From the IMG/VR virus record IMGVR_UViG_2695420411_000003: a stretch of 19,873 nucleotides of DNA. One strand, given 5' to 3'. This DNA is from a virus (Duplodnaviria > Heunggongvirae > Uroviricota > Caudoviricetes). Shown here one piece after another: positions 15,907 to 19,243 of the stretch (position 1 is its first letter; each line of letters starts with the position of its first letter). Position numbers and translations under genes: made by a program. Below the pieces are notes generated by a model. The model was not told where the DNA came from and searched no databases. It saw only the letters and a program-made list of their open reading frames with translations.

Positions 15907-16122
15907 TCACTTTCTTAAATCTAACGATAGACGGCTAACATTTAAGTATTGTGAAATATTATCAAATGTAATCATCATTGATTTACAAAAGATACATTTT
16001 GCCCCGAAAGGATTCCTGTCAGAAACATCAAAAGATGATGTTCTATACTGAGAACCATGGCAACACGGGCATCTAAAGTGAATATGGTTTGTAATATTTT
16101 CTACCTCAAAGTGCCACAACAT
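15907..16122 (-). CDS. Hypothetical small Cys-rich (zinc-ribbon-like) protein
   Basis: Motif HFRCPCCHG...(about 20 aa)...CIFCKS. An ORF of this length is unexpected in AT-rich DNA, and its stop is immediately followed by the terminator. Against it: no clear RBS, and the first ATG (16120-16122) overlaps the csp 3' end by 17 nt; the track start at 16161 is a TTG. Confidence 0.35.
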
Positions 16123-16321
16123 GAACAGCCGCGGGGCCTTTAGGTCCGTTCTCAATACCAAATTCGACTTCCTGATTCTCAGTTAACGTTTTGAAATCGT
16201 TGCTCTGAATAGCTGAGAAATGGACAAACACATCTTTGCTACCATCTTTCGGCGTGATGAAACCAAAACCTTTTTCAGGGTTAAACCATTTCACTAAACC
16301 AGTCATTTTGTTAGACATCAT
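16106..16321 (-). CDS. CspA-family cold-shock protein
   Basis: [69 protein letters not shown] with RNP motifs KGFGFI and VFVHF; true start is probably the second ATG (16316-16318). A roughly 360-bp AT-rich upstream region is consistent with the long 5' UTR typical of csp genes. Confidence 0.9.
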
Positions 16322-16681
16322 TATTACCTTTTGAAGAAGTTAGCCCTTGGGCAGAATGGTCCGAAAAAAAATATCAGAGAGAAAAACCAACAAGGAAATC
16401 TCAAGAGGTACAAATAATAAAATTATAACAATGACTGCTTCAGATAATTTTGTAACAAACCAGAACACCATTAACGCATGATTAACCAACCATAGCAAGG
16501 ATTACTTTTGTAAAGAAAAACACACGAATGAAACAATAGCTTTATTTATTAATAAAACGTGTCATTCTGTCTAATGACCTTTTATCTTACCCTTAAGATT
16601 TCAAGGATTTTGACTCATGGAAGAGTCCTTTTTATTTAAATTTCACATTCAGCGCTAAAAATAATCCGATTTAATATTAAT

Positions 16682-17709
<1,028 letters not shown>

Positions 17710-17822
17710 GGATATTTATCAGGATTTATCGGCTTCAAATCCCCGGATATGTTAAATCTTACCTCACCAGTGATGGGCACTGGCGGGAGGAGGATGTCAA
17801 TCTGATAAACACAGAGGCGACT

Positions 17823-18236
17823 ATGGATTACACAAATCTACCTAAACAAACTTTTGCTGATTTAATCGCACTCAGGCAAGCAGTCGTAGCTCTAATCAAC
17901 TTGTTGCCGGAGAAGGAAAAGGAATTAGTTAAAGCGCTTCTTAACAGAACTGCCGCCGATTTTTCATCATATCCACTGACAGATGACCTTGCGGACCTTC
18001 CTGAATTAATTGCAGCGTCCGCCATTAAGCTTACTGAAGAGATTTACCCTCCTCAAAAATCTTCACAAAATTCCTGCGAGAGTAACTTCAATGCAATAAT
18101 CGTAAAACGCCGCAAACTGCTCATCGCGGCGTTTTTTTTCATCTTCAGAAGGAATCAGCACCGACAATTTTTTATTCAGATCAGCGACGCTGCCCTCCAG
18201 TTTTTCAATGGGCGATTCAATATCATCTTTTTCTGA
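17823..18236 (+). CDS. Hypothetical plus-strand ORF converging on the lysis genes; reality and true 3' end uncertain
   Basis: ATG 17823 with AGAGG 6 nt upstream. The first roughly 80 aa are protein-like; the remaining roughly 57 aa overlap the minus-strand 173-aa gene, look like antisense translation (F/I/R-rich), and contain a plus-strand terminator-like hairpin. Confidence 0.3.
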   Translation: MDYTNLPKQTFADLIALRQAVVALINLLPEKEKELVKALLNRTAADFSSYPLTDDLADLPELIAASAIKLTEEIYPPQKSSQNSCESNFNAIIVKRRKLLIAAFFFIFRRNQHRQFFIQISDAALQFFNGRFNIIFF

Positions 18237-18584
18237 CCGCAATGCCGTCGGTGGCGTCTTCAGAGAACCAGTAATTCTTCCCGGTAGCTTTCCTTTGTAG
18301 GTTATCCACACATTCTGCGCCTCTAAAATTATGGGGCGCTTTTCCGGCGACAGCTCATCCCCTTCACATAACCCGGCAGCAACATCCAGGAAGACCTGTC
18401 TGATGCTCCTTCTGGCTGCTGCCTCATAAAACTCCAGCGCGGCACCTTCAACACGGTCCAGCGAGATGTCCAGGTCAAAAATTTCACCGTCAAAGCGTTT
18501 TTTGTCCCGTAACGCTAAAGTTACCGTAACTTTATTCTCAAAATTGCGGATCCCTTTCACAATCAGTTCATAGTTTTGAGTCAT
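18063..18584 (-). CDS. Hypothetical 173-aa soluble protein encoded between holin and endolysin, translationally coupled to the holin
   Basis: ATG 18582-18584 lies 4 nt after the holin TAA stop, with GGGGAGAG about 7 nt upstream inside the holin 3' end. No transmembrane segment, charged coiled-coil-like C-terminal region. No family recognised. Confidence 0.6.
   Translation of the reverse strand: MTQNYELIVKGIRNFENKVTVTLALRDKKRFDGEIFDLDISLDRVEGAALEFYEAAARRSIRQVFLDVAAGLCEGDELSPEKRPIILEAQNVWITYKGKLPGRITGSLKTPPTALRSEKDDIESPIEKLEGSVADLNKKLSVLIPSEDEKKRRDEQFAAFYDYCIEVTLAGIL
18104..18138 (+). terminator. Terminator-like hairpin, plus-strand polarity, inside the 3' end of the 173-aa gene
   Basis: aacgccgc-aaactgctcatc-gcggcgtt (8-bp stem, 12-nt loop) followed by 8 T on the plus strand; only 4 T follow it on the minus strand. 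Confidence 0.4.
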
Positions 18585-18588
18585 TGAA

Positions 18589-18804
18589 TTACTCTCCCCG
18601 TGCAGCCTTACGCTTGTCTTCTTTAATCTTGAAATAAAGATTTGTCAGATACGTCAGCAGGCCAAACACCAGACTACCCAGCACACCTATTGCCGCCCAC
18701 TGTGAGGGCGTGACTTTATCGAGCAACTGTAAAAACCAGTACCCGGCACTACCTGCTGAGGTGCCATAGGCGACACCCGTTGTTAACTTATCCATGGATT
18801 TCAT
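18589..18804 (-). CDS. S: Class II holin / pinholin (phage 21 S21-like) with dual-start motif
   Basis: [71 protein letters not shown] closely resembles remembered S21; the Met1-Lys-Ser-Met4 start is the antiholin/holin dual-start arrangement. The gene starts 4 nt from the assembly gap, so its RBS and promoter are missing. Confidence 0.85.
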
Positions 18805-18808
18805 AACC

Positions 18809-18818
18809 NNNNNNNNNN
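18809..18818. other. Assembly gap (10 N)
   Basis: Literal run of n in the sequence. Confidence 0.99.
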
Positions 18819-19233: not shown

Positions 19234-19243
19234 NNNNNNNNNN
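19234..19243. other. Assembly gap (10 N)
   Basis: Literal run of n in the sequence. Confidence 0.99.

What the first reader, a model, noticed from the sequence alone, without database searches (positions are those of the whole stretch)
17823..18236. Plus-strand ORF whose reading frame runs through its own apparent terminator
The only intrinsic-terminator-like structure with plus polarity here (18104-18138) lies inside the plus ORF, roughly 100 nt before its stop, and inside the coding sequence of the convergent minus gene. Either the plus transcript is a non-stop or truncated mRNA, the plus ORF's C-terminal third is an antisense artefact (its composition suggests this), or the hairpin is a regulatory RNA element such as an antisense-RNA terminator overlapping the 3' end of the 173-aa gene.
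Basis: seen in the sequence. Interest (0 to 1): 0.5.

Follow-up and report, generated by a model that had tools for sequence, protein, structure and literature searches.

The report
Frameshifted prophage gene overrunning its terminator
The odd "gene that reads through its own terminator" is a rare 2-base duplication in a small prophage gene of unknown function. The duplication destroys the gene's normal stop codon, which in almost all relatives lies 18 bases upstream of the terminator hairpin, so this is an ordinary mutant allele and not a new mechanism.

Summary
A 137-codon + ORF (17823-18236) runs through a 10-bp hairpin plus T8 tract (18104-18139) that lies inside the convergent 173-aa minus gene.

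The cause is ordinary. The window carries a GA duplication within GAGAG (18078-18082). In 128 of 132 related loci fetched here, and in all 315 complete E. coli genomes that hold this stretch, the + gene is 86 codons long. It ends at a TAA (window 18083-18085, out of frame here) 18 nt before the hairpin. The same duplication shortens the minus protein from 183 to 173 aa.

The duplication is a real, rare allele. The exact 137-aa protein is on 22 contigs, and the allele occurs in two sequence backgrounds.

The 86-aa gene is real but of unknown function. It matches phrog_2572, models as a three-helix bundle, gives dN/dS of 0.3-0.6, and has relatives at 42-56% identity.

In every locus that carries this gene, including diverged relatives, a GC hairpin sits 18-22 nt after its stop, inside the coding sequence of a convergent gene that overlaps it by 53-59 nt. 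Most loci that keep the minus-strand motif but lack the + gene have a damaged hairpin. I therefore read the hairpin as the + gene's intrinsic terminator. In this allele it would give a non-stop mRNA or a junk-tailed protein. Interest is low.

The parts
17823..18080 (+). Conserved body of the small + gene: 86 codons, MDYTNLPK...QNSCE (phrog_2572; the canonical product is annotated WP_001306174.1)
   Evidence: full-length match to phrog_2572 (E 1.2e-53). 118 of 132 related loci have an intact 86-codon ORF. dN/dS is 0.34-0.61. Relatives at 42-56% identity exist. AF2 gives a three-helix bundle at pLDDT 73.
17813..17817 (+). Shine-Dalgarno-like AGAGG, 5 nt before the ATG
   Evidence: Read directly from the sequence. 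It is conserved in A-type alleles, and AAGGA occupies the same place in types B and C.
17725..17753 (+). Candidate weak sigma-70 promoter, TTTATC-N17-TATGTT (inferred only)
   Evidence: The two hexamers and their spacing are conserved in the diverged A, B and C cassettes. The promoter scan's threshold is not met. No expression data were available.
18078..18082 (.). GAGAG: site of the 2-bp GA duplication (canonical sequence is GAG) that shifts both overlapping genes out of frame
   Evidence: Alignment. GA in 128 and GAGA in 4 of 132 loci. 0 of 315 complete E. coli genomes carry GAGA. The exact 137-aa product is on 22 contigs. The allele is present in a second background, L031, at 98.55% identity.
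18083..18085 (+). Native TAA stop codon of the + gene, out of frame in this window
   Evidence: the canonical ORF ends ...TGC GAG TAA.
18081..18236 (+). Tail created by the frameshift (codons 87-137 plus TGA); it is the antisense of the minus gene, is Phe/Arg/Ile-rich, and is not a conserved coding frame
   Evidence: This frame shows no sign of selection (dN/dS 0.64-1.44).
18104..18139 (+). Hairpin (10-bp stem with a 6 G-C core, 12-nt loop) plus T8 tract; probable intrinsic terminator of the + gene, embedded in the minus coding sequence (codons EKKRRDEQFAAF)
   Evidence: The hairpin is intact in all 146 loci that carry the + gene, 18-22 nt after its stop, including diverged types B and C. It is damaged in about 79 of 83 loci that keep the motif but lack the + gene.
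18063..18584 (-). 173-aa late-operon gene: DUF1327/YdfR domain (aa 1-112) plus a coiled-coil-like module; the same duplication alters its last residues (canonical 183 aa ends ...TRRNFVKIFEEGKSLQ, here ...TLAGIL)
   Evidence: PF07041, E 1.1e-41; phrog_2091.
17737..18248 (.). 512-bp segment (+ gene, hairpin and the module part of the minus gene) that replaces 51 bp in phages with a short 116-aa YdfR
17176..17709 (-). Lysozyme R (rrrQ-like), downstream neighbour in the late lysis operon (context)
18589..18804 (-). Class II holin (essQ/essD-like), upstream neighbour in the late lysis operon (context)

Best explanation
Shown: the window carries a rare frameshift allele of a small prophage gene. A GA dinucleotide is duplicated inside the 53-nt stretch where two convergent genes overlap tail to tail. 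This removes the + gene's stop codon (canonical product 86 aa, stop 18 nt before the hairpin). The reading frame then runs on through the hairpin as antisense junk, giving 137 codons. The same change replaces the last 16 residues of the minus-strand DUF1327-plus-module protein (183 to 173 aa).

Inferred: the hairpin plus T tract is the Rho-independent terminator of the + gene. It is built into the coding sequence of the convergent late-operon gene (codons KKRRDEQFAAF) and keeps + transcription from running antisense into the holin. In this allele, transcripts ending at the T tract (about 18137-18140) have no in-frame stop. They should behave as non-stop mRNAs, which are rescued by tmRNA with degradation of the product. 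Read-through transcripts would give an 86-aa protein with a 51-aa hydrophobic and basic tail. Either way the allele is most likely a loss-of-function lesion in a Qin-like, decaying prophage.
For: A 2-bp insertion relative to three relatives. Canonical 86-aa CDS annotated 18 nt upstream of the hairpin. GA versus GAGA is 128:4 in fetched loci and 315:0 in complete E. coli genomes. The exact 137-aa protein is on 22 contigs against at least 999 for the 86-aa representative. GAGA is also found in a 98.55%-identical background.

The + gene is real: phrog_2572, homologues of 89-93 aa at 42-56% identity aligned over the full length, dN/dS 0.34-0.61, and a three-helix model whose residues 75-86 are unstructured.

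The minus frame is real: the module recurs in 169/176/183/211/243/296-aa and 185/222-aa proteins that differ by in-frame indels.

The hairpin is tied to the + gene. It is intact 18-22 nt after the stop in types A, B and C, although the module proteins are only about 23-31% identical. Type C shows one G-C to A-U double change, and one G-C to G-U change preserves pairing only in the + sense. Where the + gene is absent, the commonest alleles carry a synonymous GCG to GCT mismatch or a 15-nt in-frame deletion of one arm.
Against: No transcript data were available, so neither the promoter nor the 3' end of the + RNA is shown. The only promoter candidate is weak (none found upstream). The 12-nt loop is large for an intrinsic terminator. 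The T tracts of types B and C are poor (TTTCTGTTC, TTGTCGCTC). Covariation is not significant (82 of 500 shuffles reach the score). The contrast between loci with and without the + gene rests on only a few independent evolutionary events. A few loci without the + gene (L085, L087, L232) keep a perfect stem. The hairpin is at least as stable in the minus sense, so a role in the late mRNA cannot be excluded.
Confidence: 0.82

Rival explanations
1. The 2-bp difference is a sequencing or assembly error in a draft scaffold, and the real genome has the canonical 86-aa gene.
For: The window contains two N10 runs, so it is a scaffolded draft. The change lies in a short GA repeat. No complete RefSeq E. 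coli genome has it.
Against: Four independent IMG/VR contigs carry exactly GAGA, one of them (L031) in a background with 36 other differences. The exact 137-aa protein has its own accession (WP_159420128.1) and is on 22 contigs, including one of 4.67 Mb.
Confidence: 0.04
2. The + ORF is not a gene in any allele. The region is a non-coding spacer or a cis-antisense RNA locus, and the hairpin terminates a non-coding antisense RNA that regulates the minus gene or the lysis operon.
For: No clear promoter and no known domain. About 11% of loci have the ORF disrupted by start loss, nonsense or frameshift. dN/dS is only moderately below 1. The transcript would be antisense to 53 nt or more of the minus gene.
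Against: ORFs of 86-93 codons stay open, with a Shine-Dalgarno sequence, in relatives down to 42% protein identity, and conservation runs along all three predicted helices. Length variants are in-frame. The ORF matches a PHROG family over its full length. The AF2 model is moderately confident.
Confidence: 0.08
3. The hairpin acts on the minus (late) transcript, or is only a by-product of the conserved peptide motif KKRRDEQFAAF (CGCCGC...GCGGCG from Arg-Arg...Ala-Ala). Its position after the + stop would then be incidental.
For: The same motif and hairpin occur in module proteins that have no + gene nearby (L085, L087, L232). The minus-sense fold is more stable (-18.7 to -23 kcal/mol against -14.6 to -17). 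The synonymous CGC to CGT variant keeps a G-U pair only in the minus sense. Covariation is not significant.
Against: Type C changes the peptide (RHHENGVAF) yet keeps a 9-bp stem through a double change. Where the + gene is missing, the peptide motif is kept while a synonymous change (GCT) breaks the stem core in 37 or more loci, and 32 loci delete one arm. The spacing to the + stop is constant at 18-22 nt across diverged cassettes. The R to H variant keeps pairing only in the + sense.
Confidence: 0.15

Closest known systems
Rho-independent terminators shared by or embedded between convergent genes (bidirectional terminators seen in full-length RNA profiling of E. coli; discussed in bioRxiv 10.1101/2022.10.23.513370, found; the original Ju et al. 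2019 report is cited from my own knowledge)
   Same: A GC-rich hairpin flanked by an A tract on one side and a T tract on the other, lying where two convergent transcription units meet. The convergent transcripts would overlap at their 3' ends.
   Different: The hairpin is not between the two stop codons. It lies inside the minus gene's coding sequence, about 40 nt or more before that gene's stop, and the two ORFs themselves overlap by 53-59 nt. Termination was not measured here.
Phage morons in or beside the lambdoid lysis cassette (for example lambda bor, transcribed against the late operon; own knowledge)
   Same: A small gene of opposite orientation, with its own ribosome-binding site and terminator, inserted among late lysis genes. 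It is present in some lambdoid prophages and absent from close relatives.
   Different: The + gene always travels with a partner on the other strand (the module ORF) that it overlaps. No lysogen expression or phenotype is known. There is no homology to Bor or Lom.
Non-stop mRNAs rescued by tmRNA/ArfA (established trans-translation pathway; own knowledge)
   Same: In this allele the predicted transcript 3' end lies upstream of the first in-frame stop codon, which defines a non-stop message.
   Different: The situation arises here from a frameshift mutation. It is not a regulated or conserved feature, and neither tagging nor 3' ends were observed.
YdfR / DUF1327 proteins of Qin-type prophages (K-12 YdfR, 103 aa, binds the RNase E catalytic domain and co-purifies with RNA; PMC13232886)
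   Same: The minus gene's first 112 residues are a full DUF1327 domain, and the gene sits between the holin and the lysozyme as ydfR does.
   Different: The window's protein carries an extra 61-71-aa module that K-12 YdfR lacks. Its tail is altered by the duplication. RNase E binding was not tested for this form.

Membership tests
Rho-independent (intrinsic) terminator | GC-rich stem of at least about 5 bp | tested here: met
   10-bp perfect stem with a core of 6 G-C pairs, -14.6 kcal/mol, z = -2.3.
Rho-independent (intrinsic) terminator | Short loop (typically 3-8 nt) | tested here: not met
   The loop is 12 nt in this allele, so the scan did not list it. PhiR12-type alleles gain two pairs and have a 12-bp stem with an 8-nt loop.
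Rho-independent (intrinsic) terminator | U-rich tract immediately 3' of the stem | tested here: met
   T8 at 18132-18139, of which four can pair with the upstream A4. The tract is weaker in types B and C.
Rho-independent (intrinsic) terminator | Lies shortly downstream of the stop codon of a co-oriented gene | tested here: inconclusive
   Not met in the window, where the ORF runs through it. Met in canonical alleles (18 nt after TAA) and in types B and C (20-22 nt).
Rho-independent (intrinsic) terminator | Transcript 3' ends form at the U tract | not testable with these tools
   No RNA data are available here. Term-seq or 3' RACE is needed.
phrog_2572 (86-aa phage protein of unknown function) | Full-length profile match | tested here: met
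   The canonical 86-aa form matches at E 1.2e-53, residues 1-86 of 86. The window's first 86 codons are identical in protein to the commonest haplotype.
DUF1327 / YdfR family (PF07041) | Pfam domain above the gathering score | tested here: met
   141.3 bits against a cut-off of 25, residues 1-112.
Bidirectional terminator between convergent genes | Hairpin located in the intergenic space between the two stop codons | tested here: not met
   The hairpin lies inside the minus ORF, and the two ORFs overlap by 53 nt in canonical alleles and 174 nt in the window.
Bidirectional terminator between convergent genes | A tract 5' and T tract 3' of the stem, so that both strands read stem plus U tract | tested here: met
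   The + strand reads AAAA-stem-TTTTTTTT. The minus strand reads stem plus UUUUACGAUUAUU.
Non-coding cis-antisense RNA regulator | The transcript lacks a conserved ORF | tested here: not met
   The ORF of 86-93 codons is conserved down to 42% identity, and dN/dS is below 1.
Known anti-phage defence systems (PADLOC) | Profile match of either partner | tested here: not met
   No hit for the 86-aa, 93-aa, 73-aa, 183-aa or 296-aa proteins.

The most novel reading that the evidence does not exclude
The small three-helix + gene and the minus-strand coiled-coil 'module' ORF form a conserved, mobile two-gene cassette. Its 53-59-nt tail-to-tail overlap and embedded hairpin would be functional. For example, a lysogen-expressed + transcript and the Q-antiterminated late transcript could control each other by RNA duplex formation or polymerase collision, tuning lysis-gene expression. 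Alternatively the pair could be an uncharacterised moron or exclusion module. The cassette is found fused to DUF1327 between S and R (types A and C) and free-standing after Rz (type B).
Probability: 0.15. Interest if true: 0.5.

Novelty: new member of a known kind. Interest (0 to 1): 0.15.

Why it matters
This matters little for biology at large. It removes an apparent paradox, an ORF reading through its own terminator, by showing that the ORF is a frameshift allele already present in public databases as a 'hypothetical protein'. It also shows that annotation pipelines treat the locus inconsistently: 137-aa, 86-aa, 'YdfR incomplete' or no call.

There is a modest by-product. The slot between holin and lysozyme in E. 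coli lambdoid prophages holds an uncharacterised convergent gene pair that overlaps at the 3' ends, with a terminator-like hairpin written into the coding sequence of one partner. That pair could be a convenient natural case for studying terminators embedded in coding sequence and convergent transcription inside a Q-antiterminated operon.

Tried and rejected
- **Function of the 86-aa protein.** Pfam and NCBIfam gave only sub-threshold noise (DUF1823 at E 0.11, which one phage record had used as a name). PADLOC gave nothing. An exhaustive HMMER search found only close relatives, three short homologues and spurious TPR-repeat hits. The AF2 model searched with Foldseek against PDB and BFVD gave nothing below E = 0.9.
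- **Alternative + ORF in L087.** The 106-aa ORF (phrog_1853) is not a homologue of the 86-aa protein.
- **Known RNA families.** Rfam has no family at the hairpin. Two chance matches fell well below their gathering scores.
- **Frame test in the overlap.** dN/dS over 145 nt was too noisy to separate the frames. The decision rests instead on which frame stays open, on in-frame indels and on recurrence of the module in other proteins.
- **Covariation of the hairpin.** Eight haplotypes gave 2 pairs with double changes, which is not significant.
- **Species-representative genomes.** The scan returned only one E. coli locus, so the family is essentially confined to Escherichia and Shigella prophages plus a few metagenomic relatives.
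- **Programmed frameshifting.** Rejected, because the difference is a DNA polymorphism and the shifted frame is not conserved.

Full report
**1. The observation**

The window is part of a Qin-like lambdoid prophage of E. coli. On the minus strand lie the holin (18589-18804), a 173-aa gene (18063-18584), the lysozyme R (17176-17709) and Rz (16682-17179). A cspA-type thermoregulator lies further on at 16060-16476.

The + ORF 17823-18236 (137 aa) exists. The hairpin is AAAACGCCGC, a 12-nt loop, then GCGGCGTTTT, followed by more T (18104-18139). It folds at -14.6 kcal/mol, z = -2.3.

**2. Why the ORF runs through the hairpin**

I aligned the window with three relatives: E. coli PE164, phage PhiR63_1 and phage PhiR12_1. 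The window reads CTGCGAGAGTAAC where the others read CTGCGAGTAAC. The extra GA lies within GAGAG at 18078-18082.

In the relatives the + gene is annotated as an 86-aa hypothetical protein ending ...TGC GAG TAA. In window coordinates that TAA is 18083-18085, 18 nt before the hairpin, and it is out of frame here. Codons 87-137 are therefore the antisense of the minus gene. Their Phe/Arg/Ile-rich composition is what the antisense of Lys/Glu-rich sequence gives.

How common is the GAGA form?
- None of the 315 complete E. coli genomes that contain this stretch has it. The best full-length hits are all 97.8%, which corresponds to the 2-bp gap.
- Among 132 related loci fetched from IMG/VR, metagenomes and records, 128 have GA and 4 have GAGA.

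The allele is nevertheless real:
- The exact 137-aa protein is in NCBI as WP_159420128.1, on 22 contigs, one of them 4.67 Mb. The 86-aa representative is on at least 999 contigs.
- One GAGA locus (L031) differs from the window at 36 other positions.

The duplication lies in the overlap of both genes, so it also alters the minus protein. The canonical product is 183 aa ending ...CIEVTRRNFVKIFEEGKSLQ. The window's is 173 aa ending ...CIEVTLAGIL.

**3. Are both genes real?**

*Plus gene.*
- It matches phrog_2572 over its full length.
- Its length variants are in-frame (84, 88 and 82 aa).
- Pairwise dN/dS between the three E. coli haplotype groups is 0.34-0.61. Variable sites fall 15/10/9 at codon positions 3/2/1.
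- An exhaustive HMMER search found homologues of 93 and 89 aa at 56% and 42% identity. They align across all three predicted helices.
- AlphaFold gives a three-helix bundle (pLDDT 73). Residues 75-86, the part that overlaps the minus gene, are unstructured.
- No function could be assigned.
- About 11% of loci carry a disrupted copy through start loss, nonsense or this frameshift. That is consistent with weak constraint in decaying prophages.

*Minus gene.*
- Residues 1-112 are a complete DUF1327/YdfR domain.
- The remaining 61-71 residues (...IEKLE..LNKKLS..PSEDEKKRRDEQFAAFYDYCIEV...) are a module that recurs in several forms. It appears inside 296-aa proteins (phrog_1085), at the N-terminus of 185- and 222-aa proteins, and as a free-standing 73-aa protein. 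In-frame length variants of 169, 176, 211 and 243 aa also exist.
- The minus frame through the hairpin is therefore genuine coding sequence.
- dN/dS on the 145-nt overlap alone was too noisy to discriminate the frames.

**4. Anatomy of the locus**

Compared with phages that carry a short 116-aa YdfR, a 512-bp segment (17737-18248) replaces 51 bp. That segment holds the + gene, the hairpin and the module part of the minus gene.

The diverged homologues of the + gene show the same arrangement:
- In loci L092-L094 and L148-L152 (type B) the 93-aa gene converges on a 73-aa module gene and overlaps it by 59 nt. There the pair lies after Rz and before a DUF1441 gene.
- In L095 and L097 (type C) the gene converges on a 243-aa DUF1327-module fusion between S and R, again overlapping by 59 nt.

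The pair thus behaves as a two-gene cassette found at two different positions in phage genomes.

**5. The hairpin**

Every locus that carries the + gene (146 loci, about 17 haplotypes) has an intact stem 18-22 nt after the + stop codon:
- Type A: AAAACGCCGC/GCGGCGTTTT.
- PhiR12-type alleles: two extra pairs, giving a 12-bp stem and an 8-nt loop.
- Type B: AACGCCGC/GCGGCGTT.
- Type C: AACGCCACC/GGTGGCGTT.

These stems persist although the module proteins are only about 23-31% identical between types and the encoded peptide changes from RRDEQFAAF to RHHENGVAF.

Relative to type A, type C has one G-C to A-U double change. A 7-locus variant (Arg to His) gives G-U in the + sense but A-C in the minus sense. 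Formal covariation is not significant, with 82 of 500 shuffles reaching the score.

I also examined 83 loci that keep the module but lack the + gene:
- The commonest haplotype (37 loci, with further minor variants) carries a synonymous GCG to GCT change that puts a mismatch in the GC core.
- 32 loci have an in-frame 15-nt deletion that removes one arm.
- About four keep a perfect stem.

This contrast rests on few independent evolutionary events. Even so, the diverged cassettes keep the hairpin while much closer relatives without the + gene lose it. That pattern is what is expected if the hairpin serves the + gene.

I therefore read the hairpin as the + gene's intrinsic terminator, written into the coding sequence of its convergent partner. 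Termination itself, and the promoter, are inferred and not shown. The only promoter candidate is a weak but conserved TTTATC-N17-TATGTT at 17725-17753. No Rfam family matches the region.

**6. Consequence for this allele (inference)**

If transcripts end at the T tract, the frameshifted message has no in-frame stop. By the established trans-translation pathway it should be handled as a non-stop mRNA. Read-through transcripts would give an 86-aa protein with a 51-aa junk tail. The minus protein also loses its conserved tail. The simplest view is a loss-of-function lesion affecting both genes.

**7. Comparison with what is known**

The arrangement works like a terminator at the junction of convergent transcription units. 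It is A-tract/stem/T-tract and could in principle act in both directions. It fails one defining feature of the classical bidirectional terminator because it lies inside one ORF and not between the stop codons.

The + gene resembles a moron such as lambda bor in its orientation and patchy distribution, but it always comes with an overlapping partner.

The N-terminal domain of the minus gene belongs to the YdfR family. [quoted passage not shown] That finding concerns the DUF1327 domain only and was not tested here.

**8. Verdict**

The finding is real in the sequence and is explained by an ordinary, rare frameshift allele. The underlying cassette is an uncharacterised but unsurprising member of known kinds: a small prophage accessory gene with an intrinsic terminator embedded in a convergent ORF. 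Interest is low (0.15). The most novel reading still open is that the overlap and hairpin form a functional coupling device between the two genes (probability about 0.15).

Noticed in passing
window 18809-18818 and 19234-19243: There are two runs of exactly 10 N, so the window is a scaffolded or patched draft. The sequence to the right of the first run does not continue the usual region upstream of the holin. By eye it encodes a tail-fibre (J-like) peptide on the minus strand, which I did not test.
   Followed up: partly
window 16060-16476 (-): Rfam cspA thermoregulator (RF01766), 109.8 bits against a gathering score of 78. This is the 5' leader of a cspI-type cold-shock gene, typical of Qin-like prophages.
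   Followed up: no
L004, L085-L088, L097 and the window 17710-18588: The slot between holin S and lysozyme R is strongly polymorphic in E. coli prophages. Forms seen: YdfR alone (114-116 aa); DUF1327 plus module (169-243 aa) with a convergent 86-93-aa gene; DUF1327 plus module plus C-domain (296 aa, phrog_1085); and module plus C-domain (185 or 222 aa).
   Followed up: partly
L087 717-1037 (+) and 1017-1685 (-): A different, unrelated small convergent gene (106 aa, phrog_1853) overlaps the 3' end of the 222-aa module protein by 21 nt. Convergent 3' overlap therefore recurs in this slot with non-homologous partners.
   Followed up: partly
window 17767-17783 (+): Inverted repeat CCAGTG-N5-CACTGG in the leader of the + gene, partly conserved (GTGGTGGGACACTG) in the diverged type B cassette. 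Its role is unknown.
   Followed up: no
L092 1151-1779; L151, L152: In type B loci the two-gene cassette (93-aa gene plus free-standing 73-aa module gene) lies after Rz (DUF2514) and before a DUF1441 gene, not between S and R. The pair therefore occupies different positions in different phage genomes. Between L092 and L151 the + protein is almost unchanged, while the module protein differs by about 26%.
   Followed up: partly
L001 1025-1560 (E. coli PE164) and other hits: In several close relatives the neighbouring lysozyme rrrQ is itself annotated as frameshifted, and the DUF1327-module gene is flagged 'incomplete' by PGAP because it is compared with short YdfR models. Annotation of this locus is inconsistent across genomes.
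   Followed up: no
L044, L045, L055, L057, L064, L066, L069: Seven IMG/VR loci share an ATG to ACG change at the + gene's start codon together with a 21-23-nt deletion elsewhere in the 512-bp segment. This is a second, independent way in which the + gene is inactivated.
   Followed up: partly
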